Below, one piece after another: positions 21,893 through 64,000 of a stretch of 64,000 bases of DNA. Under the pieces are notes generated by a model. It had not been told where the DNA came from. It worked only from the letters and a program-made list of their open reading frames with translations, and searched no databases. The translations under genes were made by a program, and so were the position numbers. Numbering within the stretch: the first letter of the stretch is position 1; every line of letters begins with the position of its first letter. Source of the stretch: Clostridia bacterium (GTDB taxonomy: Bacteria > Bacillota > Clostridia > Oscillospirales > CAG-272); contig JAFQOP010000017.1 of assembly GCA_017403155.1 (NCBI GenBank), forward strand, positions 17,023 to 81,022, in the 5' to 3' direction.

Positions 21893-21918
21893 TTATATAA
21901 AGGAGAAATCAAGAGAAA

Positions 21919-24438: not shown

Positions 24439-24459
24439 TCGTGGGGCAGGGTAAAGAAA

Positions 24460-25779: not shown

Positions 25780-25806
25780 GCGGATACTGAGCGATAGGAG
25801 ATTTTT

Positions 25807-26871: not shown

Positions 26872-26876
26872 GTGAT

Positions 26877-40081: not shown

Positions 40082-40980
40082 TGAAGGGTTCTTATTTAAA
40101 CGATGAATTTTTCAGTCGTTTAGAGACGCTCTCTCTTGAGCTTCGTGCCGATCTCGCAGGCTTCTTCGGAGGCAAGCACCTTGTGCGCACGTACGGACAG
40201 ACGGTTGAGTTCGCGGACTACCGCGAGTATATGCTCGGTGACGACATCCGCCGCATAGACTGGAATCTTTACAGCCGTTTTGAGAAGTTTTTCCTGAAGC
40301 TTTTCACCGACGAGCGCCAGATGCACACGCAGATATTCATAGACACCTCCGCCTCGATGGGAAAGCATAACCCCGAAAAGGCGGCGTACGTCGTGGGTAT
40401 AGCGGCGGCACTCGGCTACCTTTCGGTTCACAATATGGACAAGGTATCCTTCAAGCTCATAAGCGGTGAAAAATCCGAGGATCCGTTTGGCACCATCGTT
40501 GGCAAGCGCGCCTTCTTCGACGCAATCAGCTCCCTCGAGGAGCTCTCCTTTGACGGAGAGTGCGATCTTCGCTCCTCCATTATAAATGCGCCGAACGTGG
40601 GCAACAACGACGGTCTGACGGTTATAATCTCCGATTTCTTTACCGACAGCGACTGGAAAAAGGCAGTGGATTATCTTTGCTACAAGAAGAGGCAGGTCCT
40701 GCTCGTACAGGTAATGACCCTTGAGGAAAGAGATCCGCTTTACACGGGTAGAGTCAACCTCATAGACTCTGAGTCGGTGGACGTGGCCGACGACAAAAAT
40801 ATGAAAATGAAGATCGACCGTGCGTCGCAGAATGCCTATGAGGCAGCTATGCGCGAGCTGGTCGGTGACTTGCATCAGTTCTGTAATTCGCGCGGCGCCG
40901 CCTTTGTATCTGTGTGTACCGATCAGCCGATTGAAAGGATGCTCTTTAAAGAACTTTTGAAGGTAGGTATCATGGGATGA
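40081..40980 (+). CDS. DUF58-family protein (MoxR-associated, vWA-like)
   Basis: FADYREYMLGDDIRRIDWNLYSRFEKFFLKLFTDERQ is the hallmark DUF58 motif. The start overlaps the MoxR stop (TAATG). Confidence 0.88.
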   Translation: MKGSYLNDEFFSRLETLSLELRADLAGFFGGKHLVRTYGQTVEFADYREYMLGDDIRRIDWNLYSRFEKFFLKLFTDERQMHTQIFIDTSASMGKHNPEKAAYVVGIAAALGYLSVHNMDKVSFKLISGEKSEDPFGTIVGKRAFFDAISSLEELSFDGECDLRSSIINAPNVGNNDGLTVIISDFFTDSDWKKAVDYLCYKKRQVLLVQVMTLEERDPLYTGRVNLIDSESVDVADDKNMKMKIDRASQNAYEAAMRELVGDLHQFCNSRGAAFVSVCTDQPIERMLFKELLKVGIMG

Positions 40981-42890: not shown

Positions 42891-42905
42891 CAGGAGCATA
42901 GCCAG

Positions 42906-45623: not shown

Positions 45624-45649
45624 GACAGAAAAGCCGAAAGGAGCAGCAG

Positions 45650-48466: not shown

Positions 48467-48516
48467 TCGGGCAGGAAAATAGGTATAATTTATAACCAAT
48501 ATAGGAGCATCAATAA

Positions 48517-51500: not shown

Positions 51501-51798
51501 CGAGTTCCTCGCAGAGGAATTCACAGCCAACACCGCAGCGGCAGGCGAGCTCCTCGTCGCTCTCGAGATGGAGGCAATCGGTTATAGGTATTACAGCTAT
51601 ATGCTCGAGAACGAGGCAGCAACCGAGGCAGAGGTCGAGGCAGCAGCCGAGTCTCTCCTCGAGGCATACGCCGCCCTTGAGACTGCCCTCGGAAATCTTT
51701 CTGACGACGAGGGAAAGGAATTCACCGACAACCTCGGTGACATCTATGAAATTTATAAGGCAATCGCCGAGAGCGTAACGCCTGCTCCCGTCGAGTAA
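48517..51798 (+). CDS. Orphan lipoprotein: three Ig-like modules + about 800-aa acidic, aromatic-rich helical region
   Basis: Lipobox LALVAC|GG. Ig-like segments end in TVTITYGEATTTVKITVV, LNLTAKYTNGDTVYTCPFTATVYAV and TLTVEYGGKTHSYKVELTY. I recognise no family motif in the remainder. Confidence 0.85.
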   Translation: MKRISKILLLLALVVLTALALVACGGTETLSVKEDRMPQLVHVQGEELNLADGVLIYNDGSGDSELAMNAEGVTVSGYDKNTLGEQTVTITYGEATTTVKITVVPRMTVDGYTADYLVGDEFDTDDGVLKITRNDGSSFTVILKSDKVKIEGFDSSAAGTLNLTAKYTNGDTVYTCPFTATVYAVDSVSFKAPNKTAYDSHDGELDVSGGYFTLSGKNGALKKDVPLDADIVQGFDISAVNETNTPIWQTLTVEYGGKTHSYKVELTYTDISLFKKNAQPLLSLNWEVPSDEEPELTEAQGTLALAMMEKYLDMSPAERTFITDEETLATARAAMSYGFATWADEIQKYDNAFAIEYGELVFKCESREALEAAIEGLANTDTPIYTYSPILLQLMETFKEEQVNTDYLFSDYPVIDNETYEALVTVFEFMLDLDTVADKVGEDWRDDISVYATEIEDVYDAIVNSEFYSYEFAQFFYYVSMWRTEDDLFDFLYTYYYDVKEDVASIIKIANIRLPSELEEVFAYVYEAMNLMSFITNDYYFYQIPDTTEFFYSYYMAQKLSNEIITSEDPNDEMLQTLFYGLPLNSMLGISAEEGIYTFSDILEYINTSEGGYYSLCGALLDIPAFDELMSKYLDIVVKDLDSEEYMHSEEYVTDVKAMFALYTALTPSQQFNFLGILSTYYVRGYVPMAFDNVTEGYSELSTVFVDMVNGVYTDMFTTEAAKNAYLDLIFATEIYAQRYLYSSLNTGTEKTWLEDFTARINAVTAALGTMDDADKAIFTAELGVLYTTYKGILDSYGTTGDVELGDWEDDIAELEEAVLNLELAYAILSEGASYYDLFFTAYERVTAITDRILSDPNTPSEIKHAIIYSELYSTSSLDKMLDPDLVVDPEDEVFWSYDYVISVYRSMYVNALLTLGGGTSLYDYYQMYGFDKFMNKSYDLIWAYMGSQTDDTDIFDKAAGLDVMTDFAEMDVNAQMMFILYIEGENGFYYTAISEFLAEEFTANTAAAGELLVALEMEAIGYRYYSYMLENEAATEAEVEAAAESLLEAYAALETALGNLSDDEGKEFTDNLGDIYEIYKAIAESVTPAPVE

Positions 51799-51810: not shown

Positions 51811-52707
51811 ATGAGAAGATTCGGAATCTCCATTTACGGAGTATCAAGAAAAATCAGAAGCGGAGAGCTCACCCCCGTCGAGGCATTCCACAAAATATGT
51901 GATATGGGTGCCGAGGCGGTGGAGCTCGTGCCCTTCGGCTTCAATCTCGTCACCACCCCCTCCCTCAAGGCAGAGCTGCGCGCGGCAAGCGCCGAGCGCA
52001 GCGTCCCGATAGGGAACTACTCTCTCAACGCCAACTTCCTCATGCTCACCCCTGAGCGATATGAGGAAGAGATGGCGAGAGTAAAGTCGCACATCGATGC
52101 GGCATCGGATATGGAAATACCCACCGTCCGCGTTGACTCAGCGGCATACTCCCGTCCAAAGTCCGAGAACACAATGGAAAAGTTCCAGGCGGAGCTGCCA
52201 CTGATAGTCGAAACCTATGAGCGCCTGTGCGATTATGCCAAGCCTCTCGGCATCACTATTCTTCTCGAGAATCACGGCTTCCACGCCAACGGCTCCGAGC
52301 GCGTCCGCCAGATACTGACGAGCGTAAAGAGGGATAACTTCGCCCACCAGATGGACGTCGGCAACTACGTTTGCGTTGACGATATCCCCGAGATTGCCGC
52401 CAAGAAGATGATCGGCTTCGCCAAGACCATCCATATGAAGGATTTCTACCTCCGTCCCGCGCACCGCGACCCGGGCGACTCCGATGAATTCAACTGCGAG
52501 AGCTCCTGGTTCCGCTCGGTAAACGGCACCTTCCTCCGCGGCTCCATTCTCGCCCAGGGAGATATTGATATCTGGGACGTTATGCGCACGGTAAAGAGCT
52601 CCGACTTTGACGGAGATATCTACCTCGAGTATGAGGGCATGGAGGAATGCGAGTACGGCACCGCTGTCTCCTTTGCCAACATGAAGCGAATCTACAACGA
52701 GGTATAA
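51811..52707 (+). CDS. Sugar-phosphate isomerase/epimerase (xylose-isomerase-like TIM barrel)
   Basis: 298 aa. The pattern ILLENHGF, HMKDF and YLEYEG is typical of AP_endonuc_2 / xylose-isomerase-like TIM-barrel proteins. Confidence 0.8.
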   Translation: MRRFGISIYGVSRKIRSGELTPVEAFHKICDMGAEAVELVPFGFNLVTTPSLKAELRAASAERSVPIGNYSLNANFLMLTPERYEEEMARVKSHIDAASDMEIPTVRVDSAAYSRPKSENTMEKFQAELPLIVETYERLCDYAKPLGITILLENHGFHANGSERVRQILTSVKRDNFAHQMDVGNYVCVDDIPEIAAKKMIGFAKTIHMKDFYLRPAHRDPGDSDEFNCESSWFRSVNGTFLRGSILAQGDIDIWDVMRTVKSSDFDGDIYLEYEGMEECEYGTAVSFANMKRIYNEV

Positions 52708-52906: not shown

Positions 52907-52942
52907 AAAAAACACACAACCGCGAGGGTTGTGTGTTTTTTT
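52907..52942. terminator. Bidirectional intrinsic terminator shared by the convergent plus-strand block and the giant minus-strand gene
   Basis: 10-bp stem ACACACAACC/GGTTGTGTGT (52912-52921 and 52927-52936), flanked by A6 and T7. Confidence 0.8.
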
Positions 52943-52969: not shown

Positions 52970-53650
52970 TTATTGCTCGCCTTCCTCGCAAAGAGCGTTG
53001 AGAGCGTGCTCAAGGAATTCTGCTATAAGTCTGTGACCTGCTGTGTTGGGGTGCAGACCGTCCTCCATATAGTACTCCCTCGTTTCCTCTGACTCGGGGT
53101 CGAGCTCAAGCTCGTTGTAAAGGTCTATCACATCAACTCCGTATTTTGCACACGCCTCAATGATAGCGTTTACGTAATCCTCGAGGGTGTGTCCCGCTCC
53201 GTTCGGGATGCTGTCGTAGGTGTGCGTCTCGCCCGTTGCGGAATTTACACCGTAGCCGTATCTGTGAAGCGGAGTGATAAATACTATCCTTGCATTCGGG
53301 TATTTAGCCTGCAATGCGGGAATTATTACGTTGAGTGCGCCAAGGAAGGACACGTCAGAGGTATCGGTGATAGCTCCTATGGGAGTGTCGTAGCCGTAGT
53401 CGTTGGTTCCCATAAATATCGTTATCAGGTCAGCCTCGGGAACAGTGTCGTAAATATCCGTGAGCGAATCGCACTCAGCGCTGCCTGTGCCCGTGGAGCT
53501 TACAGTGCCCTCTGTTGAGGTAACTGTGCTAACACTGCCGAATTCGAGCATCTGCTCAAGCAGCTGCCAATACTTGTCGCCCTCGCAGCCTATGCCGGCT
53601 GTTATACCGTCGCCAACGAATATTGCATTTTTGTCTGCCCAGTAGCCCTT
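52970..53650 (-). other. C-terminal SGNH/GDSL-hydrolase-like domain with Ser-to-Gly substitution in block I
   Basis: Block I reads IFVGDGITAG (codon GGT, verified on the DNA at about 53610), where GDS is expected. Block III FMGTNDYG and block V DGLHPNTAGH are intact. Confidence 0.65.
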
Positions 53651-56600
53651 TATCTGAATACCCTCGCTTGCTCCGAAGTGCTTGGAGAAGAGAAGTGCGT
53701 GTGAATCACCCGTTACCATAATTCTGTCGTGAGCGATTTCCTCGGCACCTCGTACGTCGGCAAACATCGCAACCGAGTATATCTTACCCTTGAAGCTCTG
53801 CGCGGTAATTCTTTGGTCGGTAGCAATGAAGAATGTGGAGCCGTCGTAAGGAACCTCGCTCGCAAGCGTTACGCTTTCGGCAAAAATTCCGTTTACGTAA
53901 AGTGACGCGCTTGTGCCGTCGATGGTGAAGGTAAGGTGAACACTCTTTTCCGAACGGATATCCACGTTGAAGATATAAGAGTAGCTTACGCCGTTCTTCT
54001 TGTACCACAGACGTGGAGCGCCGTTAGTATAAATCTCAAGGTTCATTCTGCCGCTTGCCGTGCCGTCGTAGTTGCCGAGTATAACACCGCCGCGGTCTGT
54101 GATAGAGGGGGAAAGCTGAAGCTCAATCTCAAAGGTCTTGGGAGCGTCAGTGAGGTTGCCTTCAACAACGAAGTATTCGCCGCCCATAAGAGCCGAATCG
54201 GTATGAGTGTTGCTGTTAACGGTGTCGGGCGTGTAGGGAATACTGTATATTCTGACCACCCTGCCGCAATCGGAGCAAATGAGCTTTCCAAGTCCGTCGC
54301 AGTCTGCTGTGGGCTCAGCGAGAATTTCAAAGTGTACGTTACCGTGAATATCATTCACCTGATTTTCGTCAGCATTAATGTATTCCGTGTAGAACAGCAG
54401 TCCATCCCCGTCTGCCGTGCCAAGCATATCCTGCATGATCTGCTCTGCGCTTCTTACACTTTCAAAAAGACCTACGGAGTAGATTGTGCCTTTGAAATAC
54501 TGTGTATTGTCGGGTCTGAAGTCGCCGCCTATGTAGAAATTGTCGCTTGCCTCGGGAAGGGGAAGAGCAAGCTCCTTAACCTCTGTCAGAACACCGTTTA
54601 TGTAAAGGTAAGCGGTTGTTCCGTCAACAGTGAGTGCTACGTGGATTGGCTTATCCGAGCGGACGTCGGTGTCAAACCTGCAGTCAACGGTGGTTGTTCC
54701 GTTTACAAAGTAAAGTCTCAGCTTTCCTTCCTTATATACCTCAAAGCTTACTATGGGTTTGCTCTTGAAGTTGTTGCTTACGATAATGCCTCCGCGTCCG
54801 TTGCAGTCCTTGGAGAGCTGTATAATTGCCTCAAAGGTGAGAGGAGTTTTATCTATCGTGCAGTCGGTGCTGCCTATAACGTTGCTGTTAAACGACTGTC
54901 CGTTGTAGCTTGAGTTGCCCTTTTCGGTGAAGTACGTGGAGTAGATAAGTCCCTCGGACTTGTCGGTCACAACCGTCATATCGCTTATGATTTCAGCCTC
55001 GCTTCTTGCCGTGCTGAATATATTGAGCGAGTATAGCGTTCCCTTGAAGTACTGAACGTTGTCTGCGCGGTAGTCGCCGCCGATAGCATATGCTCCCGAC
55101 ATCGTGGGAAGTGCACCCTCGACAGTCAGCGTCTCTGCAAGAGAACCGTTGACATACAGGGATATTTCCAAATCCGCCGCTACAAGAGCAATGCTTATGG
55201 GTGTATCCGAGCGTATATCGGTGGCAAAGGTGTAATCGTGCTTGACTCCGCCGTTGATGTAATAGAGTCTGAGTCTTCCTCCTGCCGCTATCTCAAGATT
55301 GAGCGTATCCTTTGTGCCGTCGGTGTAGTTTCCGAGGATAACGCCTGCGCGCTCCTCGTGGCTCGTCGGAATCATTGCGGTAAATTCGATAGTACCCACC
55401 GTGCTCTCGCTTACCTCAAGCTCGGTAAGGCTGTTCTGCTTAAACTGCGTGCCGGTTGTGTTGCCCGTAATATAGGTTGGCTCGTCGGATGAGGAGAAAT
55501 AGCTTGAGTAAAGCACACCGGGTGCGGCTGCGCTTACGTATTCCTTGTCGGTAAGTATCTCCTCACAGCTCCTTACTCTGTCAAAGAGTGCAACCGAGTA
55601 TATCTTGCCCTTGAATACCTGGGGAAGTACGCTTCGGTTGTCCGCACCGACAACCATATTCTTGTCTATTTCGGGCAGGGGAGTGTGTATCTCGACCGTT
55701 TCGGAGAGCACTCCGTTTACATAAAGCCTTACAAAATCGCCGTCAACGGTTACCGCGAGGTGTACGGGCTCCGTCGAGCGTATATCCTCAGCGAAGAGTA
55801 TATCCGTTCTTATTCCGTTCGTTATGTAGAACAAACGCACTCTGCCCTGACTGTATATTTCCAGGTTGATAGCGTTTTCGTCCTCATAGGATGAGTAGTT
55901 TCCTACAATAACGCCTCCGCGCTGTGAATAGCTCTTGTCAAGCAGTACGGTTGCCTCAATCGTAAGAGGTGCCTTGTCAACGTAAACGGGAATGGGGCTG
56001 CCGCCAACAAAGCTGATACCCGTGTTGCTTTCGGGATTGATGGCACTGCCGTTGTATTTTGTTTCCTCCGTAACGATTATCTCGTCACAAACAACACACC
56101 TTCTGTAACGGATACCGTTTTCCTCGGGTGTTGCAATTCTGTCAACAGTCCACTCGCCAAGCGAGTGCAGGGTTTCGTATATTTCCTTGTGTCCGCAGCA
56201 GCTGCATACCTTGTATATGTATCCGTGCTCGGTCTCGCTTGCCTCCACTCTTTCTGTATCCTCGAGGGTGTGAGTCACAAGCTCTGCGTTTGTCGAATAC
56301 CTTGCAACTATTGAGAATACGCTGTTCTCCGAGCAGGTGGTCTCCTTTATTACAAGAGCCGAGTTGGATTGATAATACATTGAGCCTGCATGAAGATTGA
56401 GCGAGTTGAGAAGCGAAACGTAATAGCGGACTCCGTCCTTCACGTAAGAGAACTGCACGTCCTTGTTGTGAATTGCGCCGAGCGGCCACTGATTTATGGA
56501 TTTGAACCCGATATCTACTCCAACCTCAAGGTCGTCAAACGTCGTGGGATCAAAGGATTCCATATTCACGTATATCTTGTTGTTGGGGTTCTTGTTTTTG

Positions 56601-59600
56601 TGGAATGCATCGATAAGCATCTGCTCAAGCTGCTGGGCGAGAGAGAAGCTACCGCTGTATTCAGCAGCATTCCAGGTGAATATGATGTAATCCTCGGAGT
56701 TGTAAAGCTCGCGCATATACTTGCAGTAAGGATTGTATATCTCGCTCCAGGAGAGAATGTCTCCGCCAAAGGGAGTGAAGTACATCTCGAATACGTCGTC
56801 GTTTTCCGTGCCTATATACACAAGACGCTCGTCCTCGGGAATTTCCTCGTATTTGCCCTCCAGAATGAGATCTATCTGCTTTGTCGTCTCAACGTTCATC
56901 ACGTTCTGGAATTCAACAATTCCTTCCTGATCACCGTATTTCGGCATCAGGCGCAGATAGTTAACGGAGATGCGGTAGATGTCCTCGTGGTCGGAAACGA
57001 TAGTAGCTGTCTGAAGCTTCCAGTTTGCGTTGTAGCCCGCGTCCTTTATACCGTCAAGGTTGGAGCTTGAGGTCCAGACGGCATTTCTGTGTATCTCTCC
57101 GTTCATATCAATATAGTGAGATACTGCACAAAGTTTGGTGTGCATCATATCCGTGCCACCCTTGCCGCCTTCGCTGAGTGTCCAGTCGAAGTAGCAGTAG
57201 GAAAGATAATCGCTTATTGTGCCGTAGGGAGCATAATCGGGGTCACAATAGTCATTGTAATACGCCGAGAAATACCCTTCAAACGTGCTTGGGACAACAC
57301 CGTAATCCTTGATGGGATATCCCTCTCTGTGTCCGAGAACGTTAACGTGTATTCCCATCTTTGCCGCAGATACAAGCAGGTATGCAACTCTAACAAAGCC
57401 GAACTCGTCGTAGTTTTCGGTGTAGAGAGCTCTCGTGTATCCGAAGTATCTGCTGTTTCTGTTGATGTTAACCGCAGTCTGCACCGAGAAGCGGTATGAG
57501 GATATATCAATATATACCTCCTCGTCGGGATAAGCCTGCTTGTAAAGCATCGCCTGATAAATCATCAGAGCCTCGCCGACCGTCATATTATGAGCCGTTG
57601 AATATTTGGGATATACAAAGGTATCAACCGTAACCGTGCCGCCGTTGATGTTTTCAAACACGGTAGTTCCGCGGCTCATAAAGTTAGAGCTGTTGTCTAG
57701 CACGGGAAATTTATCATAGGTGCTGTTGATATATCCGTCGCTCGAATTGATTGCAAGGTCGAATATATCGTTTACGGATGCCGACTGCTTACCGACCGTG
57801 TTCCTTGTGGGCTCCGTGTAGCTTGTGTATACCTCTGCCGCAGAAAGGGTGAGGGGGGTGTCGTTTACGGTGAGTGCACCCTCGATTGCGGTCTGCCAGT
57901 ATGCATCGTCGAGCACAGTCTCCGTGTCAAGATCAACGTACTGCGTCTTATCGATATTGAGAACTGCATTCTTTGTATTACCCCAGATAACGCTTCCGCC
58001 CGTGGCAGTATTGCCCGAAACGGTAAGCGCCGCAAGCTCTACAACCGTGCCGGAGGTGGTTTCGTACATAAATCCACCCTTTACCGCGGAGTTGCCCGTT
58101 GCGGTTGCGTTGTGTATCTGCACGTCACTCTTGTTCGAAATATATAAGCCGCCGCCAAAGTTAGACGAGCTGTTGCGCTCAAAGTCGCATCCGTTGATAA
58201 CGGTCCTCGTGCCGCCCGTGTATATGAACAGCGCAGCACCGTTCTCAGTACATTTGTTGGACTTGAATTCTGTGTTATATATGCTTGATACCGCACCTTC
58301 GTACAGATACATACCTGCACCCATATTCGACGTGTTGTTGTTAACCGTGCTGTTATAAACCGTCAGCTCACCGAGAGTGCTGTAAACAAAGCCGCCGTTT
58401 GTTCTTGCGGAGTTTCTCGATGCGGTAACGTTGTTGAGCGTGATGCCTGCACCCTCGCCAAGAGAGATAGCACCGCCGACGCATGCGCTCGTATTCTTGG
58501 TAAACACACCGCCGTCTATCTCAAGCGTTGACTTGCCCGCGTGGATAGCACCGCCTGCACCGTCGGTCTTCTTGGTAATCGAGTTTGCAACGAACGTTAC
58601 GTCCTTCATATATACGTCAACGCTCGCGGTAAGCAGGAGAGCACCGCCGCTGTCCTTTGCAACGTTGCCCGCAAAATCGGTGGAGCGCACCGTGAGCACC
58701 TCGGTGTCGTTTTCGATTGCTCTTCTGGTTGCGTAGATTGCACCGCCGTTGTCCGACTCGTTGTCCTTAATGGTGGAGTCGGTTATGGTTACCTTGGCAT
58801 TTCTCTCAATATCGCTGCTGTATGCGATGTAGATAGCACCTCCGTTTTTATCCGAATAGTTGCCTTCAATTGCCGTGGTGCTTATATTTAGCGTTGAGCT
58901 TCTTACCGATATAGCACCGCCGTGCGAGGCTGCGCTTCCGGAAAGGAGCTCGGAGCCGTTGATGTTTACCGTGCTCTCACCGATAACGTAGAGAGCTGCG
59001 CCCTCTGCTGCCGCTGAGTTGGAATCGAATTCCGTTCCGTTAACGGTAAGAGTCGATTTGCGCTCTGTGCAGATAGCACCGCCGCTGCCAAGCGAGGAGT
59101 TGGAAATGAATTTGCACGCATTCGTTGTAACGATAGCACCCGATTCAAAGTCCGAATCGGATGAGTAGATCGACAGCGCGCCACCCGTGCTTGCGCTGTT
59201 GCCAATAAACGAGCAGCTGTCAAAACGCACCAGGCGTGTAACGTAATTGTCGCTTGACCTCGTTACAAACACAGCGCCTCCGCGGGATTTTGCGGTGTTG
59301 CTGCTGAACACGGTGTTCTTCACCGTAAAGGTGCTCGAGGTATATATAGCACCGCCGCTGCCTGAGATTGCACTGTTGCCGTCAAAGGTGGTATTGCCGT
59401 AAATCACAACACCGTTGAGGAACGTCGAGTAGATAGCACCGCCGTTCGACTGCGCCGTGTTGTCCTTGAAAAGTATAGGCGTGTCGGAGCTGTATCCGAT
59501 ATTCAGCTGAGTGGTGGAGTAGCTGGGTGAATAGTAAACGCCGCCGCTTACGGTTGCGTGGTTGGAAATAAAGCTGCCGCCGTAGAGCTTTATAACTCCG

Positions 59601-62600
59601 TAGTTGTAAACTACGCCGCCGCGCGCACCCGTATTACCCTCAAACACACCGCCGTATATCTTCAGGTTGCCCTTGTTGTAGAATACGCCGCCGAGTGTGG
59701 AATTGCGCAATTCCTCATCCGAGGTATCCTCGGGACGGATTGAGTTGTTGTTAAAGCTGCCGCCGTATACGTTCAGCGTGCCGAATGCAATTATAGCAAC
59801 CGAGCCACCAACGCGGTTAGGTCTTGACAGTCTGTATTGCTCGTTATATGCCTTTTCGTTTCCTACCTTGTAGCAGTTTATAACCGAAACGTTTTCATAT
59901 ATATCGGCAATCGCACCGCCACAGATAAAGATTACCGAGCCTGTAACGTCTACTGTCATATTGTCCTTGTTTCCGTCCACGGTAAGAAGGGCAGGGGAAT
60001 CGGATGACGGATTACCGAGAACAAGGCGCGCGTCTGCCTTCGCAAGCATTGAGTTGGTGCCGTCCCCGTGCTCACCGACAACAAACACGTCACCGCCGAA
60101 GTCAGGGGAACGGGTAAGGATATGTCTTGCCGTAGAGAAGATTGTAACGTTATAAGTGATATAGAACGTGCGGTCAATCTCGAAATCGGCTATTATCCTA
60201 ATTTTTCTTCTTCCAGCTGCGAGAGCCGCCTCAAGCTCGTCTGCGTTTGATACGTCGGTCGCGTCGGTAAGGTCGCCCGCAGGCTCGTTTCCCTCCTCGA
60301 TAAACTCGGGCACGTCGTCATATACGTTGTTTATAGTAAGCGTGCCATAAAGGGTAGCTTCCCAGTATTTTGCATCGAAAACGGGGTTTTCGGCATCGGA
60401 ATAGCTGCTCTTGTTGATATTGAGCACAGCTTCCGCGTTATCGCCGTAAACAAGCTGACCGTTTTTCGCACTGTTCGACGATACCGCAATACCGATAACG
60501 GTAGCACAGCTTCCACGTCCGCTGATATAAAGGAATCCGCCGCGTCCTGCATCATTCCTCTCAGCCTTTACGGAGTAGATATATGCGGTAGCACCGTTCA
60601 CCGTCGCAACAGCACCGCCGTTTGCCGCGCTGTTTTCGCCAAAGTCGCAAAGCTGGAGCGTAATGACGGTCGCATCACCGCTTGCATATACCGCGCCTGC
60701 GTTTCTTTTCGCACTGTTGGCGGTAAATACCGTAGTGTATATCCTTGCTACGGTAGCGTCTGTAATGGCTATGGCGCCACCGTTCTGTCTTGATGTGTTG
60801 CCGTTAAGGTACGTGCCGTAGGAGGTGAGTGTTGAGTCGACAGCATGTATTGCACCGCCGTCGTTCGCCGCGCTGTTAGCGGTGAATTTCGAGGTATTGC
60901 TGATATATGCCTCCGAGCCGTCAAGCGCAACAGCACCGCCGTTGTAGTCGGCACAGTTTGCGGTAAACGACGCACCGCTGACCGTAATATCCGAGCACTC
61001 TGCGTATATTGCACCGCCCTCAAAGGCATAGCCGCTCTCAAAGGTGTCGGAGGTGGTAGTGAGGCTGCCCTCGTATACGTACACAGCAGCACCCTTGTCT
61101 GCCTCGTTTTCTCTGAAGGTGTTTTGAGCGGAGCTTATAACCGTGTCGGCTGCATATATAAATCCGCCGTTTTCGTCAGCTGAATTGCGTGTGGCATTCA
61201 CACCGCCGAGAACTACGGGTGCGCCGCTTGTATAAACCGCACCGCCGTTTGTCGCACCGTTTTGATTGAACGTGCATTCGGTAACGGAAAGATTTGCGTT
61301 TTCAACGTATATTGCACCGCCGCACAGTGCGGTGTTTTCCGTAAAGTCACATTCCTTGATATCAAAGTCGGCACCCGAGAGGTAAAGCGCACCGCCAAGG
61401 TCCGCGTTGTTTTTATTAAACTCTGCACCGAGAAGGTCAACGAGTGCTGCATCGCTCTCAATGCATATTGCGCCGCCGTTTGTTGCCGTATTAGCAGTAA
61501 ACGTCGCGTTTGCAAGCGATGCGGCACCGCCTACGGCATATATTGCGCCGCCAAGCACTGCCGAATTCTCCAAAAGCTCGCAGCCGAGCTCAACGCTTCC
61601 CTCGGAAACGTATACTGCGCCACCACATTCGGTAGCCGTGTTTGCGGTAATGCTGCCGCCGTCGGCTATCAGAAGGCCAAGGCTGTATACTGCACCGCCA
61701 AGACGTGCCGTGTTGTTCTCAATTCTGCCGCCGTGGATATTAAGCGTGCCGATATTGTAAATTGCACCGCCCATATCCGCGATATTGCCGATAATGCTGC
61801 CGCCGTTTATATTGAGAGTACCGTTGTTGAATATAACGCCGTTTGCACCCGACGTATTATTTTCAATTTTTCCGCCGTAAACGTTTACGGTGGCATTTGC
61901 CTCGATGCTTATTGCACTGCCGTCAGCGCCAATCGCGCCTCTTACCGTAGCGTTTTCATAAATATCTGCCTGCGAGCCGCTTGCCACAACTATGACAGAC
62001 TCACCCTCGCCGCCCACTATGCTAAGAAAATCTGCATTTGCCGAGGTCGAAAGCCCCAGCGTAAGCACAACGGATGCATCGGTATAGGCACCGTCCCCAT
62101 CCTTGCCAACGACTATCAGATTTCCGCCAAAGCCGTCAGCGCGGGTAAGAGTGCAGGGAACTGTGGAGAAAATAACGGTGCTTGAGGTAACGTAAAGGGT
62201 TTCGCTTATTTCTATGTCGTTAACAACCTTGATATAAGGAGCCCCGGAAGCAAGAGCCGCCTTCAGAGCGTCAAAGTCTCTGACAATTGCCGCACTCCAC
62301 AGCCCGTCAACTATCTCGCCACTGTGATCTGTGTAGGGAGGAATGGCTGCATCGGAGTCGTATACCTTGAGTGAATTTACTATTGCACCTGACCAATAAT
62401 CGTCGGGCAGTGAGCCGCTCACGTCAAGGTCAACAAAATTGTCCTTGTTTATGTAAAGCTTTGCGTTGGTTGTGTTGCCCCAGATTATAGGACCGCCCAC
62501 GCTTGCCGTGTTGCCGGAAACCGTAATGCCGGATGCCGTAACCACAGTACCTGCGGACGTTTCATAGAGAAAGCCGCCCTTTGCCGCACTGTTGTCAATG

Positions 62601-64000
62601 GCGGTTATGTTATACAGATACGCGGTGCTTACTCCTGATATCGTCATAGCTCCGCCAAGACCTGCGGAGGTGTTCTGTATGAAGGATGAGGAGTGAACGG
62701 TTGTTTCCGTGCCGCCCGTGTATATGTAAAGCGCTCCCGCGTTTGCGGTATTGCTTTCAAGACATGAGTTGCCAATAAAGCTTGAGCCGTATATGGTTGT
62801 GGTGGCATCGCTGCCGAGATAAATCGCGCTTCCGCCCTTTGCCACGCCGTTCTTCACGGTGCTGTTATACAGTGAAAGGGTAGAGCCTATTGAGTATATC
62901 GTACCGCCGTTTCCCGTTGCGGTGTTGCCCTGCGCATCGAGCTTGTTTACGGTTGCAACCGTTCCCTCAAGCATATATATTCCGCCGCCTGCGCTTGCGG
63001 AGCTTTCGACCAGCTCTGCCTTGTCGATACCGAGGGTGGCACCCGAAGCATAAACCGTACCACCGTAGGAGGTCGCCGTGTTTTCCTTGAACGAGCAGCT
63101 CTTTACCTGCGCGCAGGAGGTGGATGCAATAGCAATCGCACCGCCGCTCTTTGCGCTGTTCTTCTCGAAGCCTACACCCAGTAGGGATACGTCGTTTTCT
63201 ATATCAAGCTCGTTGTGTCCCGTTGCATACACGGCACCTCCGCTACCCGTTGCCGTGTTGGCGATAAACGAGGAGTCGGTGAGATTAAGTGCGGAATAAT
63301 TTCCCGATACGTATACCGAGCCACCGTTGGAGGCACTGTTGCCTTCAAACACGGTATCCTGACCGGAGGTTCTTCCCGAGGAGAATATAGCACCGCCGTT
63401 TGAGCCCGCACTGTTGCCGTAGAACAAAACGCCGCTTGTAACAAGGTCGTTGTTGCCGCCAAGGTAGAGCTTTGCAGAGCTGCTCGCAGGCAGATATATA
63501 GCTCCGCCGTTGGTGCTTGCCGAGTTGTTTTTGATAGTTGCGGAGTATATGTAGAGTGAGCGATAGTTGTAGAACACGCCCGCTCTGTTTGCCGCTCCGC
63601 CCTCAAACAAGCCACCGTAAACGTTCATGGTGGCATAGTTGTAGAACATACCGCCGTATATCGACTCGCCCGTGGTGTTTACGGTGTTGTCAGTATATGT
63701 ACCGCCGTAAACGTTCATAAAGCTGCTCTTTGACAAAATTGCAACCGAGCCGCCTATATTTGCAATATTCGTGAGCGAGTATATCTCGTTTGCCGCCCTG
63801 TCGTTGCCAACCTTCTTGCAGCTTGTAACGGTAAGGTTGTCATAAAGGTCGCACTGCGCCTCGGGGCAAACGAAGAACACCGTTCCAACAACGTCAACGG
63901 TCATATTCTCGCTGTTGCCGTTAATCGTAAGTCCGCCCGAGGTATCACCGTTGAATCCGCCGATAGAGAGTGTAACCTGCTCCTCGCAAAGATTGTTCTC
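52970..64000 (-). CDS. Giant multidomain protein (partial; N-terminus beyond the window): Pmp-type beta-helix supermodules + PLD-like domain + 4 LamG modules + degenerate SGNH domain
   Basis: The reading frame stays open from 63904 to the window edge: ENNLCEEQVTLSIGGFNGDTSGGLTINGNSEN precedes the first Met. That upstream sequence parallels an internal repeat (LTVDGNKDNMTVDV..), so the true start lies upstream and the protein is at least 3,676 aa. Confidence 0.9.
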   Translation of the reverse strand, partial: ENNLCEEQVTLSIGGFNGDTSGGLTINGNSENMTVDVVGTVFFVCPEAQCDLYDNLTVTSCKKVGNDRAANEIYSLTNIANIGGSVAILSKSSFMNVYGGTYTDNTVNTTGESIYGGMFYNYATMNVYGGLFEGGAANRAGVFYNYRSLYIYSATIKNNSASTNGGAIYLPASSSAKLYLGGNNDLVTSGVLFYGNSAGSNGGAIFSSGRTSGQDTVFEGNSASNGGSVYVSGNYSALNLTDSSFIANTATGSGGAVYATGHNELDIENDVSLLGVGFEKNSAKSGGAIAIASTSCAQVKSCSFKENTATSYGGTVYASGATLGIDKAELVESSASAGGGIYMLEGTVATVNKLDAQGNTATGNGGTIYSIGSTLSLYNSTVKNGVAKGGSAIYLGSDATTTIYGSSFIGNSCLESNTANAGALYIYTGGTETTVHSSSFIQNTSAGLGGAMTISGVSTAYLYNITAIDNSAAKGGFLYETSAGTVVTASGITVSGNTASVGGPIIWGNTTNAKLYINKDNFVDLDVSGSLPDDYWSGAIVNSLKVYDSDAAIPPYTDHSGEIVDGLWSAAIVRDFDALKAALASGAPYIKVVNDIEISETLYVTSSTVIFSTVPCTLTRADGFGGNLIVVGKDGDGAYTDASVVLTLGLSTSANADFLSIVGGEGESVIVVASGSQADIYENATVRGAIGADGSAISIEANATVNVYGGKIENNTSGANGVIFNNGTLNINGGSIIGNIADMGGAIYNIGTLNIHGGRIENNTARLGGAVYSLGLLIADGGSITANTATECGGAVYVSEGSVELGCELLENSAVLGGAIYAVGGAASLANATFTANTATNGGAICIESDAALVDLLGAEFNKNNADLGGALYLSGADFDIKECDFTENTALCGGAIYVENANLSVTECTFNQNGATNGGAVYTSGAPVVLGGVNATRNSADENGGFIYAADTVISSAQNTFRENEADKGAAVYVYEGSLTTTSDTFESGYAFEGGAIYAECSDITVSGASFTANCADYNGGAVALDGSEAYISNTSKFTANSAANDGGAIHAVDSTLTSYGTYLNGNTSRQNGGAIAITDATVARIYTTVFTANSAKRNAGAVYASGDATVITLQLCDFGENSAANGGAVATVNGATAYIYSVKAERNDAGRGGFLYISGRGSCATVIGIAVSSNSAKNGQLVYGDNAEAVLNINKSSYSDAENPVFDAKYWEATLYGTLTINNVYDDVPEFIEEGNEPAGDLTDATDVSNADELEAALAAGRRKIRIIADFEIDRTFYITYNVTIFSTARHILTRSPDFGGDVFVVGEHGDGTNSMLAKADARLVLGNPSSDSPALLTVDGNKDNMTVDVTGSVIFICGGAIADIYENVSVINCYKVGNEKAYNEQYRLSRPNRVGGSVAIIAFGTLNVYGGSFNNNSIRPEDTSDEELRNSTLGGVFYNKGNLKIYGGVFEGNTGARGGVVYNYGVIKLYGGSFISNHATVSGGVYYSPSYSTTQLNIGYSSDTPILFKDNTAQSNGGAIYSTFLNGVVIYGNTTFDGNSAISGSGGAIYTSSTFTVKNTVFSSNTAKSRGGAVFVTRSSDNYVTRLVRFDSCSFIGNSASTGGALSIYSSDSDFESGAIVTTNACKFISNSSLGSGGAICTERKSTLTVNGTEFDSNSAAAEGAALYVIGESTVNINGSELLSGSAASHGGAISVRSSTLNISTTAIEGNYSDKNGGAIYIAYSSDIERNAKVTITDSTIKDNESDNGGAIYATRRAIENDTEVLTVRSTDFAGNVAKDSGGALLLTASVDVYMKDVTFVANSITKKTDGAGGAIHAGKSTLEIDGGVFTKNTSACVGGAISLGEGAGITLNNVTASRNSARTNGGFVYSTLGELTVYNSTVNNNTSNMGAGMYLYEGAVSSIYNTEFKSNKCTENGAALFIYTGGTRTVINGCDFERNSSSNFGGGLYISNKSDVQIHNATATGNSAVKGGFMYETTSGTVVELAALTVSGNTATGGSVIWGNTKNAVLNIDKTQYVDLDTETVLDDAYWQTAIEGALTVNDTPLTLSAAEVYTSYTEPTRNTVGKQSASVNDIFDLAINSSDGYINSTYDKFPVLDNSSNFMSRGTTVFENINGGTVTVDTFVYPKYSTAHNMTVGEALMIYQAMLYKQAYPDEEVYIDISSYRFSVQTAVNINRNSRYFGYTRALYTENYDEFGFVRVAYLLVSAAKMGIHVNVLGHREGYPIKDYGVVPSTFEGYFSAYYNDYCDPDYAPYGTISDYLSYCYFDWTLSEGGKGGTDMMHTKLCAVSHYIDMNGEIHRNAVWTSSSNLDGIKDAGYNANWKLQTATIVSDHEDIYRISVNYLRLMPKYGDQEGIVEFQNVMNVETTKQIDLILEGKYEEIPEDERLVYIGTENDDVFEMYFTPFGGDILSWSEIYNPYCKYMRELYNSEDYIIFTWNAAEYSGSFSLAQQLEQMLIDAFHKNKNPNNKIYVNMESFDPTTFDDLEVGVDIGFKSINQWPLGAIHNKDVQFSYVKDGVRYYVSLLNSLNLHAGSMYYQSNSALVIKETTCSENSVFSIVARYSTNAELVTHTLEDTERVEASETEHGYIYKVCSCCGHKEIYETLHSLGEWTVDRIATPEENGIRYRRCVVCDEIIVTEETKYNGSAINPESNTGISFVGGSPIPVYVDKAPLTIEATVLLDKSYSQRGGVIVGNYSSYEDENAINLEIYSQGRVRLFYITNGIRTDILFAEDIRSTEPVHLAVTVDGDFVRLYVNGVLSETVEIHTPLPEIDKNMVVGADNRSVLPQVFKGKIYSVALFDRVRSCEEILTDKEYVSAAAPGVLYSSYFSSSDEPTYITGNTTGTQFKQNSLTELEVSESTVGTIEFTAMIPTSHEERAGVILGNYTDGTKDTLNLEIAAGGRLRLYYINGGVKHDYTFATDIRSDTPISIALVAADLEISLYVNGSLAETLTVEGALPTMSGAYAIGGDYRADNVQYFKGTLYSLNIFSTARSEAEIISDMTVVTDKSEGLIYSTYFTEKGNSSYNGQSFNSNVIGSTDCTIDKTPLTFEAIIQLSKDCNGRGGIIVSNNFKSKPIVSFEVYKEGKLRLYFVNGTTTVDCRFDTDVRSDKPIHVALTVDGTTAYLYINGVLTEVKELALPLPEASDNFYIGGDFRPDNTQYFKGTIYSVGLFESVRSAEQIMQDMLGTADGDGLLFYTEYINADENQVNDIHGNVHFEILAEPTADCDGLGKLICSDCGRVVRIYSIPYTPDTVNSNTHTDSALMGGEYFVVEGNLTDAPKTFEIELQLSPSITDRGGVILGNYDGTASGRMNLEIYTNGAPRLWYKKNGVSYSYIFNVDIRSEKSVHLTFTIDGTSASLYVNGIFAESVTLASEVPYDGSTFFIATDQRITAQSFKGKIYSVAMFADVRGAEEIAHDRIMVTGDSHALLFSKHFGASEGIQIKGYWADKNAIFVGDGITAGIGCEGDKYWQLLEQMLEFGSVSTVTSTEGTVSSTGTGSAECDSLTDIYDTVPEADLITIFMGTNDYGYDTPIGAITDTSDVSFLGALNVIIPALQAKYPNARIVFITPLHRYGYGVNSATGETHTYDSIPNGAGHTLEDYVNAIIEACAKYGVDVIDLYNELELDPESEETREYYMEDGLHPNTAGHRLIAEFLEHALNALCEEGEQ
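53720..56060 (-). repeat. Four tandem LamG / concanavalin-A-like (Laminin_G_3-type) modules
   Basis: Each module of about 180 aa contains ..RGG(V/I)I(V/L)(G/S)N(Y/F).., LNLEIY..G..RL(F/Y/W)Y, D(I/V)RS..P(V/I)H(L/V)A(V/L)T(V/I)DG....LY(V/I)NG, and the ending FKG.IYS(V/L)..F...RS.EEI. Confidence 0.7.
56240..57790 (-). other. Phospholipase-D-superfamily-like domain with two HxK motifs
   Basis: The first motif is MMHTKLCAVSH...WTSSSNLD (H2255 at 57140-57142). The second is AIHNKDVQFSY...LLNSLNLHAGS (H2479 at 56468-56470). In both, Ser occupies the position of the canonical Asp. Confidence 0.5.
57800..64000 (-). repeat. Polymorphic-membrane-protein (Pmp)-type parallel beta-helix repeats arranged in at least 3 supermodules
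   Basis: Dozens of GGA(I/V)(Y/F) plus F..N(S/T)A units. Supermodules end with WGNTTNAKLYINKDNF (W475, 62480), YGDNAEAVLNINKSSY (Y1153, 60446) and WGNTKNAVLNIDKTQY (W1974, 57983). A recurring cap/linker is ..ALKAALASGAPYIKVVNDIEI.. (62221-62280) and ..ELEAALAAGRRKIRIIADFEI.. (60181-60250). Confidence 0.75.

What the first reader, a model, noticed from the sequence alone, without database searches (positions are those of the whole stretch)
52970..64000. Giant protein of at least 3,676 aa combining Pmp beta-helix supermodules, a PLD-like domain, four LamG modules and a dead-looking SGNH domain
This single minus-strand ORF runs off the window. Read by eye, its N-to-C order is:
- at least three Pmp-type (GGAI / FxxN) beta-helix supermodules of unequal length (about 680 and 820 aa between conserved end motifs);
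- a PLD-superfamily-like region with two HxK motifs;
- a CxCC...CxxC knuckle;
- three LamG modules, then a second CxxC-type knuckle, then a fourth LamG;
- an SGNH fold lacking its nucleophile.

Beta-helical stalks carrying distal enzymatic or lectin heads are known from adhesins and contact-dependent toxins. I do not recognise this particular domain combination (PLD + LamG x4 + SGNH on a Pmp stalk in a Gram-positive-like genome) as a described architecture.
Basis: partly seen in the sequence, partly recalled or inferred. Interest (0 to 1): 0.72.

Follow-up and report, generated by a model that had tools for sequence, protein, structure and literature searches.

The report
Giant secreted beta-helix protein carrying divergent PLD enzyme
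This is a real gene of about 3,800 codons from a gut Clostridia (Oscillospiraceae-like) bacterium: a secreted protein in which three long beta-helix rods carry an unannotated, very divergent phospholipase-D-type enzyme domain, four lectin-like modules and an esterase domain that has lost its catalytic serine. It belongs to a recurrent family that databases label only "hypothetical".

Summary
Window 52970-64000 (minus strand) is one uninterrupted 3,676-codon frame that runs off the window. It is collinear with a complete 3,820-aa orthologue in an Oscillospiraceae MAG, which begins with a Sec signal peptide, so about 136 residues are missing here.

Every domain call holds:
- **Stalk:** three Pmp-repeat supermodules. 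One was modelled as a continuous beta-solenoid (pLDDT 94.7).
- **PLD-like domain:** about 500 aa, invisible to Pfam and to PDB sequence search. Its model (pLDDT 91.6) matches only PLD-superfamily structures, and both HxK...N motifs are invariant across relatives.
- **Cys4 knuckles:** two.
- **Laminin_G_3 modules:** four.
- **SGNH domain:** GDS has become GDG here, while three relatives keep GDS.

The architecture is not unique. A profile of the PLD-like domain finds 195 cluster representatives, including at least 25 stalk + PLD + LamG proteins, all named "hypothetical". Stand-alone PLD-like genes sit directly downstream of homologous Pmp beta-helix genes in 4 of 4 contexts, so the stalk-PLD link is conserved. 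The SGNH tail is rare.

Best reading: a Sec-secreted enzyme-adhesin presenting an active PLD-type phosphodiesterase. The substrate is unknown; I favour a phosphodiester-containing glycopolymer or a phospholipid. I rate it a new variant of a known kind, of moderate interest.

The parts
52970..64000 (-). Giant ORF: 3,676 codons plus a stop at 52970-52972. The 5' end lies outside the window; by orthology about 136 codons are missing, including the signal peptide.
62366..64000 (-). Pmp beta-helix supermodule 1, truncated by the window end (aa 1-545)
60338..62365 (-). Pmp beta-helix supermodule 2 (aa 546-1221), with an N-terminal cap motif at aa 553-639
57860..60337 (-). Pmp beta-helix supermodule 3 (aa 1222-2047), modelled as one continuous right-handed beta-solenoid with N- and C-terminal caps
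56276..57784 (-). Divergent two-lobed PLD-superfamily domain (aa 2073-2575), not covered by Pfam
57053..57142 (-). First catalytic motif: H2287-x-K2289 ... N2314-x-D2316, invariant in the family
56396..56470 (-). Second catalytic motif: H2511-x-K2513-D2514 ... N2535. Invariant in the core family and at least 90% conserved in the broadened alignment.
56051..56236 (-). Cys4 knuckle 1 (CxCC ... H..GEW ... CxxC; aa 2589-2650), conserved directly after the PLD domain across the family
55532..56029 (-). LamG module 1 (Laminin_G_3)
54965..55462 (-). LamG module 2
54425..54916 (-). LamG module 3
54236..54343 (-). Cys knuckle 2 (C3234 ... C3242xxC3245), a shorter variant
53711..54214 (-). LamG module 4
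52997..53644 (-). SGNH/GDSL hydrolase fold (aa 3453-3668). Blocks III (GTND) and V (DGLHP) are intact, block I Ser is replaced, and the block II region has diverged.
53606..53608 (-). Codon GGT (Gly3465) at the position of the SGNH nucleophile Ser. The orthologue has AGC (Ser).
52907..52941 (.). Bidirectional intrinsic-terminator-like hairpin shared with the convergent AP_endonuc_2 gene (51811-52707, plus strand)

Best explanation
The gene encodes a protein of about 3,800 aa that is secreted by the Sec pathway and is not covalently anchored. It is a modular extracellular enzyme-adhesin.

Shown:
- Three tandem Pmp-repeat right-handed beta-helices form a rod-like N-terminal stalk.
- The stalk is followed by a very divergent but catalytically intact-looking member of the PLD (HKD) phosphodiesterase superfamily.
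- Next come a Cys4 knuckle, then four LamG (ConA-like) modules with a second knuckle before the fourth, then an SGNH esterase fold.
- The stalk-PLD pairing is evolutionarily conserved, either fused or as adjacent genes.
- The SGNH domain here has lost its Ser nucleophile.

Inferred:
- The PLD-like domain is the working enzyme. It would use the superfamily's two-step mechanism: one His attacks the phosphodiester to form a phospho-histidine intermediate, and the other His acts as general acid/base.
- The LamG array, and possibly the beta-helix surface, bind the target and hold the enzyme on it.
- In relatives the SGNH domain removes ester substituents from the same substrate. In this genome it can at most bind.

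Substrate, which is the least certain part: the recurrent PLD + SGNH and PLD + LamG pairings point to a molecule that carries both phosphodiester and ester bonds on a glycan-rich surface. I rank the candidates as follows:
- a phosphodiester-containing cell-envelope or dietary glycopolymer, such as a teichoic-acid-type polymer or a phosphoglycan: about 0.4;
- membrane phospholipid: about 0.3;
- extracellular nucleic acid: about 0.15.
For: Gene integrity and secretion:
- The frame is open and the protein is collinear with a complete orthologue.
- The orthologue and 20 or more family giants start with classic signal peptides with A-x-A sites.
- There is no TM segment, LPXTG or SLH motif.

Stalk:
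- Chlam_PMP and POMP_repeat score well above their cut-offs.
- The SM3 model has pLDDT 94.7 and pTM 0.91. It is all-beta with three strands per coil, and its PDB matches are right-handed beta-helices.

PLD domain:
- The model has pLDDT 91.6 and pTM 0.93.
- All top 50 PDB matches are PLD-superfamily members: Serratia PLD 7e0m (E = 6.5e-12, identified in PMC8004604), PLD3/4, PLD1/2, PPK1, Tdp1 and F13.
- The viral structure library gives poxvirus F13-type and PLD phosphodiesterase proteins.
- H2287, K2289, N2314, D2316, H2511, K2513, D2514 and N2535 are invariant in 39 sequences of 37-49% identity.
- H/K/N/D of motif 1 stay invariant, and H/K/N of motif 2 stay at least 90% conserved, when relatives of 17-25% identity are added. 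The consensus of motif 2 then reads the canonical 'HxK...GSxN'.
- Distant relatives pass the PLDc_2 gathering score.

Conserved coupling:
- Stand-alone PLD-like genes that carry signal or lipoprotein peptides lie 3-10 bp downstream of, or overlap, Pmp genes of 1,600-2,200 aa in 4 of 4 independent contexts. One locus carries two such pairs.
- Those Pmp proteins are homologous to this stalk, with E down to 6e-73.
- Stalk + PLD + LamG occurs in at least 25 cluster representatives.
- PLD + SGNH of the same subtype is also fused directly in the 899-aa P0047, which keeps GDS.

SGNH domain:
- It passes Pfam.
- Its closest solved relatives are lp_3323 (3dc7), 7bxd, 3bzw and phage tail-associated lysin SGNH domains.
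- The window has GDG where three relatives have GDS.
Against: - There is no biochemical evidence for any member; every named relative is 'hypothetical'.
- The window's PLD-like region has no Pfam hit. Neither the sequence nor two profiles hit any solved PLD by sequence.
- Structural similarity is at superfamily level only: TM 0.33-0.55 and 9-13% identity.
- Both motifs carry a hairpin about 8-11 residues longer than the canonical HxK(x)4D(x)6GSxN. The canonical Asp four residues after the Lys is not evident.
- I could not inspect model coordinates to confirm that the two motifs face each other.
- No neighbouring genes are conserved around the giants, so context says nothing about the substrate.
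- The lack of an anchor leaves open whether the protein stays on the cell.
Confidence: 0.6

Rival explanations
1. A purely adhesive giant surface protein. The PLD-like, LamG and SGNH modules all serve as ligand-binding 'heads' on a beta-helix stalk, and none of them catalyses anything.
For: - The SGNH domain in this copy has already lost its nucleophile.
- Pmp repeats and LamG modules are classical adhesin components.
- The genome neighbourhood is full of giant LRR_5, Flg_new and Big_3 surface proteins.
- PLD-fold proteins without classical activity exist; poxvirus F13-type proteins are among the fold matches.
Against: - The H, K and N residues of both PLD motifs are invariant or nearly so across relatives down to 17-25% identity. 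That is the signature of purifying selection on a catalytic centre.
- SGNH orthologues keep all catalytic blocks.
Confidence: 0.15
2. An antibacterial or anti-eukaryote contact toxin. In this reading a phospholipase-D-type membrane-attacking effector, analogous to T6SS Tle5/PldA-type PLD effectors or CdiA-like filaments, is delivered on a beta-helical filament.
For: - The PLD fold's best match is a bacterial phospholipase D.
- A beta-helical filament resembles TpsA/CdiA-type stalks.
- The pairing with an SGNH (lipase/esterase) domain is compatible with lipid attack.
Against: - No immunity-like gene is conserved next to the giants or to the two-gene modules.
- No secretion-system marker is present: Pfam/NCBIfam scans show no TPS, LXG/T7SS or autotransporter barrel, only a Sec signal peptide.
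- The enzyme is internal, not a variable C-terminal tip.
- The protein is collinear and 68% identical between genomes rather than polymorphic.
- Stand-alone versions are lipoproteins of the producer itself.
Confidence: 0.12
3. An extracellular nuclease for DNA or RNA scavenging, of the PLD3/4, Nuc or BfiI-like type, tethered on a stalk.
For: PLD3/PLD4 5' exonucleases, Tdp1 and a NucT-like phage nuclease are among the fold matches.
Against: - Fold scores do not discriminate nucleases from lipases.
- Recurrent fusion to LamG lectin modules and to an SGNH esterase is not what nucleic-acid substrates would predict.
- No nucleic-acid-binding domain was detected.
Confidence: 0.1
4. An artefact: an assembly chimera, a pseudogene, or a prophage tail-fibre/depolymerase gene rather than a cellular gene.
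For: - The window cuts the gene, so its 5' end is unseen.
- The SGNH domain is related to phage tail-associated lysin domains.
- Beta-helices resemble tailspikes.
Against: - The frame is uninterrupted for 11 kb.
- The protein is fully collinear with an independent MAG orthologue and with P0081.
- There are no DNA tandem repeats, and a terminator follows the stop.
- The neighbours are cellular genes, and orthologues carry a signal peptide.
Confidence: 0.03

Closest known systems
PLD (HKD) phosphodiesterase superfamily: bacterial phospholipase D (Serratia plymuthica, PDB 7e0m), PLD3/PLD4 exonucleases, poxvirus F13, Tdp1, PPK1 C-terminal domains
   Same: - A single-chain, two-lobed fold with one HxK...N motif per lobe, both conserved.
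- All best structural matches are members of this superfamily.
- Distant relatives reach the PLDc_2 threshold.
   Different: - Only 9-13% identity and TM 0.33-0.55 to any solved member.
- No Pfam or PDB sequence hit for the window copy.
- The hairpin between HxK and N is longer than in canonical members, and the canonical Asp is not at its usual position.
- The domain is extracellular and embedded in, or encoded next to, giant Pmp beta-helix proteins.
Chlamydial polymorphic membrane proteins and other Pmp-repeat autotransporter adhesins (for example Fap2 and Ag43-type passengers)
   Same: GGA(I/L/V)/FxxN repeats that form a long right-handed beta-helix displayed outside the cell.
   Different: - No autotransporter beta-barrel and no Pmp middle domain were reported by the Pfam scan.
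- The host is Gram-positive-type (Oscillospiraceae relative), and export is by a plain Sec signal peptide.
- There are three tandem capped helices rather than one.
- Enzyme and lectin domains are attached at the C-terminus.
Pmp/beta-helix 'adhesin-like proteins' of gut methanogens that carry a catalytic domain (Chlam_PMP + Beta_helix + transglutaminase-core proteins of Methanobrevibacter and Methanobacteriaceae)
   Same: They were retrieved as homologues of the stalk module (P0242 and P0305). The design principle is the same: a Pmp beta-helix fused to an enzyme-like head in gut anaerobes.
   Different: The head is a different domain (transglutaminase-like rather than PLD-like), the hosts are archaeal, and the proteins are much shorter (about 1,200 aa).
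SGNH hydrolases of the lp_3323 (3dc7) / 7bxd / 3bzw group and SGNH domains of staphylococcal phage tail-associated lysins (6v8i, 8egr)
   Same: Same fold and same conserved blocks III and V (E = 8e-25 to 2e-12). It is a C-terminal appendage on a large extracellular fibre-like protein, as in the phage proteins.
   Different: The block I nucleophile Ser is replaced by Gly and the block II region has diverged in this copy. The substrates of the closest solved relatives are themselves mostly unknown.

Membership tests
PLD (HKD) superfamily | Two copies of the HxK(x)nD/N catalytic motif in one chain (or one per subunit) | tested here: met
   H2287/K2289/N2314/D2316 and H2511/K2513/D2514/N2535 are invariant in 39 sequences. 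They stay invariant or at least 90% conserved in a broader set of 31 sequences. The spacing is longer than canonical.
PLD (HKD) superfamily | Bilobed alpha/beta PLD fold | tested here: met
   The AF2 model has pLDDT 91.6. The Foldseek top 50 PDB matches are all PLD-superfamily members, with probability 1.00 and E down to 6.5e-12. The viral library agrees.
PLD (HKD) superfamily | Match to Pfam PLDc / PLDc_2 above the gathering score | tested here: not met
   The window region has no hit even at E = 10. Distant relatives P0181, P0185 and P0187 pass at 29.5-34.2 bits against a cut-off of 27. One family member carries a 'faint' PLDc_2 hit.
PLD (HKD) superfamily | Phosphodiester hydrolysis or transfer through a phospho-histidine intermediate | not testable with these tools
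   Needs enzymology.
Chlamydia-type polymorphic membrane proteins (Pmp autotransporters) | Multiple GGA(I/L/V) and FxxN repeats (Chlam_PMP / TIGR01376) | tested here: met
   Chlam_PMP scores 99.3 bits against 20.6, and POMP_repeat scores 107.9 against 15. There are 32 GGAx motifs against 1.4 expected by shuffling.
Chlamydia-type polymorphic membrane proteins (Pmp autotransporters) | C-terminal autotransporter beta-barrel and Pmp middle domain | tested here: not met
   The whole-protein Pfam scan lists only Laminin_G_3, Chlam_PMP and the two GDSL families. The C-terminus is an SGNH domain. The protein is therefore Pmp-repeat-containing but not a Pmp autotransporter.
Right-handed parallel beta-helix proteins | Continuous three-stranded solenoid | tested here: met
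   The SM3 model has pLDDT 94.7 and a regular three-strand periodicity. Its PDB matches are PL6 lyases, phi29 gp12, Ag43 and tailspikes, at weak E values of 6e-4 or worse.
Laminin_G_3 / ConA-like lectin-glucanase superfamily | Profile match above the gathering score | tested here: met
   186 bits against 27.6, in four stretches. The modules are 37-44% identical to each other. Ligand binding was not tested.
SGNH/GDSL hydrolases | Fold or profile match, plus block III GxND and block V DxxH | tested here: met
   Lipase_GDSL_2 scores 72.9 bits against 32.9. GTND and DGLHP are present.
SGNH/GDSL hydrolases | Block I nucleophile Ser (GDS) | tested here: not met
   The window has GDGITAG, with codon GGT at 53606-53608. 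L001orth, P0081, P0047 and PDB 3dc7 all have GDSITA. This copy is therefore a predicted pseudo-enzyme.
Polymorphic / contact-dependent toxins | Variable C-terminal toxin tip with an adjacent immunity gene and a dedicated secretion marker | tested here: not met
   The enzyme is internal and conserved. No neighbour is conserved. Only a Sec signal peptide is present.

The most novel reading that the evidence does not exclude
The Pfam-less PLD-like domain founds a new extracellular branch of the PLD superfamily. In this reading its native substrate is not a phospholipid or nucleic acid but a phosphodiester-linked glycopolymer, such as teichoic-acid-type wall polymers or phosphoglycans of neighbouring microbes or of the diet. 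The enzyme would work obligatorily with a Pmp beta-helix partner, fused or encoded upstream, that binds the polymer. A dedicated SGNH esterase would strip ester substituents. Together these would form a previously unrecognised glycopolymer-degrading or remodelling machine of gut Clostridia.
Probability: 0.25. Interest if true: 0.75.

Novelty: new variant of a known kind. Interest (0 to 1): 0.5.

Why it matters
Gut and rumen Clostridia encode many giant "hypothetical" surface proteins whose roles are unknown.

- **A new PLD branch.** One such family is built around an enzyme domain that standard annotation (Pfam, NCBIfam, PDB sequence search) cannot see. Structure prediction and residue conservation place it firmly in the PLD phosphodiesterase superfamily. 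That defines a new, testable PLD branch of about 200 50%-identity clusters.
- **A conserved partnership.** The PLD-like domain is conserved next to Pmp beta-helix proteins, either fused or as adjacent genes.
- **A natural experiment.** Orthologues carry either an active or a dead SGNH domain.

If the substrate proves to be a cell-envelope or dietary phosphoglycan, the known chemistry of PLD enzymes would widen and the result would bear on microbe-microbe or microbe-feed interactions in the gut. If the substrate is a phospholipid or DNA, this is a new scaffold for a familiar activity.

Tried and rejected
- **Sequence route to the PLD call.** I ran Pfam at E = 10 on the PLD-like region, phmmer against the PDB, and two family profiles (A1, A3) against the PDB. 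None returned a PLD hit. The assignment therefore rests on fold, motif conservation and the bridge through distant relatives.
- **Recovering the missing 5' end.**
  - The genome-contig scan found only an orthologue at 73% nucleotide identity, not the source contig.
  - An exact 60-mer from the window end had no match in metagenome contigs.
  - The look-up of encoding contigs cannot be used on a truncated protein.
  - The N-terminus is therefore inferred from orthologues.
- **Gene neighbourhood of the giants.** No partner gene is conserved in L010/L011 or L001, so context gives no substrate clue.
- **Names of relatives.** All named relatives are 'hypothetical protein'.
- **Literature.** Searches on Chlam_PMP + Laminin_G_3, on PF02415 with Clostridia and rumen, and on polymorphic membrane protein with Oscillospiraceae and giant found nothing on this architecture. 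The giant-gene preprint describes only RCC1-type Oscillospiraceae giants.
- **Fold search of the stalk module.** It gave only generic beta-helix matches at weak E values. I therefore rejected the idea that the stalk is a recognisable lyase or hydrolase.
- **DNA tandem repeats.** None were found, so I rejected recent repeat expansion or assembly duplication.
- **Anchoring.** A search for LPXTG, SLH and TM segments was negative.
Full report
**1. The observation**

Translating window 52970-64000 on the minus strand gives 3,676 sense codons followed by one stop. There is no internal stop, and the frame is still open at base 64000. A 15-bp-stem hairpin followed by a T-run lies at 52907-52941, just beyond the stop. 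It is shared with the convergent AP_endonuc_2 gene at 51811-52707. Tandem Repeats Finder reports nothing in the 11 kb, so the protein-level repeats are old and diverged rather than assembly duplications.

**2. The missing N-terminus and the host**

Scanning one genome per GTDB species with the first 300 residues returned L001, from a contig of 'MAG: Oscillospiraceae bacterium isolate SIG692'.
- L001 carries a complete ORF of 3,841 codons from an upstream TTG.
- The window protein aligns with it end to end: residues 1-3675 against 158-3841, at 68% identity. The DNA is about 73% identical. It is therefore an orthologue in a related genome, not the same contig.
- The orthologue's likely start, MKTKFRNRILALSLALLMLVSIMPIQALA|SAAS, is a textbook Sec signal peptide.
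- More than 20 other family giants begin the same way.
- By homology the window copy lacks only about 136 residues and is about 3,810 aa long.
- An exact 60-mer from the window edge was not found in the metagenome contig collection, so the real 5' end remains unseen.
- The window protein has no TM segment, LPXTG or SLH motif. The orthologue's only hydrophobic stretch is the signal peptide.

**3. The stalk (aa 1-2047)**
- Chlam_PMP scores 99 bits against a cut-off of 20.6, and TIGR01376 POMP_repeat scores 108 bits against 15.
- GGA[ILVMFA] occurs 32 times in residues 1-2072 and never in the remaining 1,604 residues. Composition-preserving shuffles give a mean of 1.4 and a maximum of 5.
- A conserved end motif (...IWGN..NA.L.I.K......YW....G.LTV) recurs at residues 535, 1212 and 2034.
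- A conserved N-cap motif marks each module start.
- The modules are 28-32% identical to one another.
- Homologues of module 3 almost all carry PF02415, often together with PF13229 Beta_helix.
- With 33 aligned sequences, AlphaFold2 models module 3 at pLDDT 94.7 and pTM 0.91. The model is a continuous all-beta solenoid with three strands per coil and short helical caps at both ends.
- Its PDB neighbours are right-handed beta-helices: PL6 lyases, phi29 gp12, Ag43, tailspikes and Rhombotarget A. The E values are weak (6e-4 or worse), so no specific enzymatic relationship can be claimed.
- At roughly 25-26 residues and 4.8 Å per coil, each module would be a rod of about 12-15 nm. This is inference from general beta-helix geometry, not a measurement.

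**4. The PLD-like domain (aa 2073-2575)**

Sequence methods fail on this region. Pfam at E = 10 gives no PLD family. phmmer against the PDB gives nothing. Two family profiles against the PDB also give nothing.

Homologues do exist.
- The first search returned 44 proteins, mostly about 550 aa, with no Pfam domain and labelled 'hypothetical'.
- In their alignment H215, K217, N242, D244, H439, K441, D442 and N463 are invariant.
- With this alignment AlphaFold2 gives pLDDT 91.6 and pTM 0.93.
- All 50 best Foldseek matches in the PDB are PLD-superfamily members: Serratia plymuthica PLD 7e0m (E = 6.5e-12, identified through PMC8004604), PLD3/PLD4, PLD1/2, PPK1, Tdp1 and vaccinia F13. Each has probability 1.00, with TM 0.33-0.55 and 9-13% identity.
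- The viral library returns poxvirus F13-type and 'PLD phosphodiesterase' proteins.
- A profile search of 1.84 billion cluster representatives finds 195 proteins at E ≤ 1e-3 and 117 at E ≤ 1e-30.
- Three of the most distant of these pass the PLDc_2 gathering score, and several more fall just below it. One family member carries a precomputed 'faint' PLDc_2 hit.
- When those distant relatives (17-25% identity) are added, H/K/N/D of motif 1 stay invariant and H/K/N of motif 2 stay at least 90% conserved. The motif 2 consensus then reads the canonical HxK...GSxN.

I conclude that this is a genuine but highly divergent PLD-superfamily domain with a conserved catalytic centre. It departs from the canonical motif in two ways: the hairpin between HxK and N is longer, and there is no obvious Asp four residues after the Lys.

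**5. The C-terminal half**

After the PLD domain comes a Cys4 knuckle (GY.Y..C..CG...H..GEWIVD.EAT....G..H..C..CG). It is conserved at this position in 39 detected copies across the family, and a shorter variant usually precedes the last LamG module.

Laminin_G_3 matches four times (E = 5e-55). The modules are 37-44% identical to one another.

The last 216 residues are an SGNH fold.
- Lipase_GDSL_2 scores 72.9 bits against a cut-off of 32.9.
- The closest solved relatives are L. plantarum lp_3323 (3dc7, E = 8e-25), 7bxd, 3bzw and the SGNH domains of phage tail-associated lysins 6v8i and 8egr.
- Block I reads FVGDGITAG, with codon GGT at 53606-53608. The orthologue L001 (AGC), P0081, P0047 and 3dc7 all read GDSITA.
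- The block II region also differs: relatives have G(V/L)AGSCISS, and the window has TSTEGTVSS.
- Blocks III (GTND) and V (DGLHP) are kept.

The inactivation is specific to this lineage.

**6. How common is the architecture?**

I mapped the window's own modules onto the 188 retrieved relatives with HMMs and phmmer. The counts were:

| Architecture | Proteins |
|---|---|
| stalk + PLD + LamG, mostly 3,000-5,200 aa (three to five supermodules, then PLD, knuckle and one to seven LamG modules) | 25 |
| stalk + PLD only (including partial PLD matches) | 21 |
| PLD + LamG without a stalk (including partial PLD matches) | 17 |
| PLD-like domain alone, full length (mostly stand-alone proteins of about 500-590 aa) | 57 |
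| PLD-like domain alone, partial match (mostly gene fragments) | 58 |

- The SGNH tail occurs only in the window protein, L001orth and P0081. The same SGNH subtype (E = 6e-74) also follows the PLD-like domain directly in the compact 899-aa P0047.
- Every member that carries a name is 'hypothetical protein [Clostridia bacterium]', or Lachnospiraceae or Spirochaetia for outliers.
- Literature searches found no description of this architecture.
- The word-indexed homology search listed nothing longer than 1,403 aa. That explains why the giants surfaced only in the exhaustive search.

**7. A conserved Pmp-PLD partnership**

The stand-alone PLD-like proteins carry signal or lipoprotein peptides. 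I examined four independent contig families.
- In all four, the gene lies 3-10 bp downstream of, or overlaps by 8 nt, a Chlam_PMP protein of 1,600-2,200 aa on the same strand. One contig has two such pairs in tandem.
- Those upstream proteins are homologous to the window stalk: 27-31% identity over 700-1,300 aa, with E down to 6e-73.
- The fusion seen in the window therefore reproduces a conserved gene pair in the same order. This argues that the beta-helix and the PLD-like enzyme work together.
- Around the giants themselves no neighbour is conserved.

**8. Mechanism**

Shown: Sec export (by orthology), a rod-like triple beta-helix, a PLD-fold domain with conserved catalytic residues, lectin-type modules, and an SGNH domain without its nucleophile.

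Inferred from established PLD chemistry: one motif's His attacks a phosphodiester to form a phospho-histidine intermediate, and the other His protonates the leaving group and activates water.

The recurrent co-occurrence with LamG modules and with an SGNH esterase suggests a substrate that combines phosphodiester and ester bonds in a glycan-rich context. My ranking is:
- teichoic-acid-type polymers or phosphoglycans, about 0.4;
- membrane phospholipids, about 0.3;
- nucleic acid, about 0.15;
- a non-catalytic role, about 0.15.

Nothing tested here discriminates between these firmly.

**9. Rivals**
- A purely adhesive role conflicts with the conserved catalytic residues.
- A contact-dependent toxin is disfavoured for four reasons: the enzyme is internal, the orthologues are conserved and collinear, no immunity-like neighbour exists, and only a Sec signal is present.
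- A nuclease role is not supported by the domain partners.
- Chimera, pseudogene and prophage origins are contradicted by the orthologue collinearity, the intact frame and the cellular neighbours.

**10. Verdict**

Each part belongs to a known superfamily, but three things are undescribed:
- the PLD-like domain as a Pfam-less branch of the PLD superfamily;
- its conserved coupling to Pmp beta-helices;
- the giant stalk-PLD-LamG(-SGNH) architecture.

I rate it a new variant of a known kind. It is of moderate interest because giant mosaic surface proteins are common in gut Clostridia and no function can yet be assigned.

Noticed in passing
window 13146-29114 (+): A 2,544-aa surface protein (Peptidase_S8 + PA + fn3_5 + Big_2 + eight LRR_5 stretches) is followed by a Flg_new protein and an Opp-type peptide ABC importer (SBP_bac_5, two permeases, ATPase). 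It looks like a cell-surface proteolysis and peptide-uptake locus.
   Followed up: partly
window 29424-37646 (+): A second giant: 2,740 aa with three Flg_new (Listeria-Bacteroides) repeats and 14 BspA-type LRR_5 stretches.
   Followed up: no
window 39032-51798 (+): A MoxR (AAA_3) / DUF58 / BatA+VWA / VWA 'Bat-like' operon is followed by a 938-aa LRR_5 protein and a 1,093-aa Big_3 protein.
   Followed up: no
L006 2187-17665: Two tandem copies of the two-gene module: Pmp beta-helix (1,936 and 2,192 aa), each followed by a 554-aa PLD-like gene. The second PLD-like gene carries a faint PLDc_2 hit.
   Followed up: partly
L003 2796-7991 and L007 3109-7992: The Pmp partner proteins start with a lipoprotein signal (…LSAC / …FASC). 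This is followed immediately by the same 'H.YGEW.V..ATC' Cys-knuckle motif that links domains in the giant.
   Followed up: no
P0047 (899 aa, metagenome protein): A compact fusion of signal anchor + PLD-like domain + the same SGNH subtype (E = 6e-74) with an intact GDSITAG. This is an independent PLD-SGNH association and a convenient construct for biochemistry.
   Followed up: partly
L003 9769-10851 and 13156-15753; L007 11404-12486; L009 486-1238: Acyl_transf_3 genes (360 aa, possibly glycan O-acyltransferases) lie just downstream of the PLD-like gene in two contexts. A DUF4886 protein and a GT2 glycosyltransferase are also nearby. This is a weak hint of a link to surface glycopolymers.
   Followed up: no
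tool behaviour: The word-indexed homology search listed no protein longer than 1,403 aa, although many 3,000-5,200-aa relatives exist in the exhaustive representative search. Giants are under-reported by the first tool.
   Followed up: no
L002 2158-3129 (uncultured Rickettsiales MAG): A weak (32%) Pmp-repeat match to the stalk query, reflecting the wide distribution of Pmp repeats rather than orthology.
   Followed up: no
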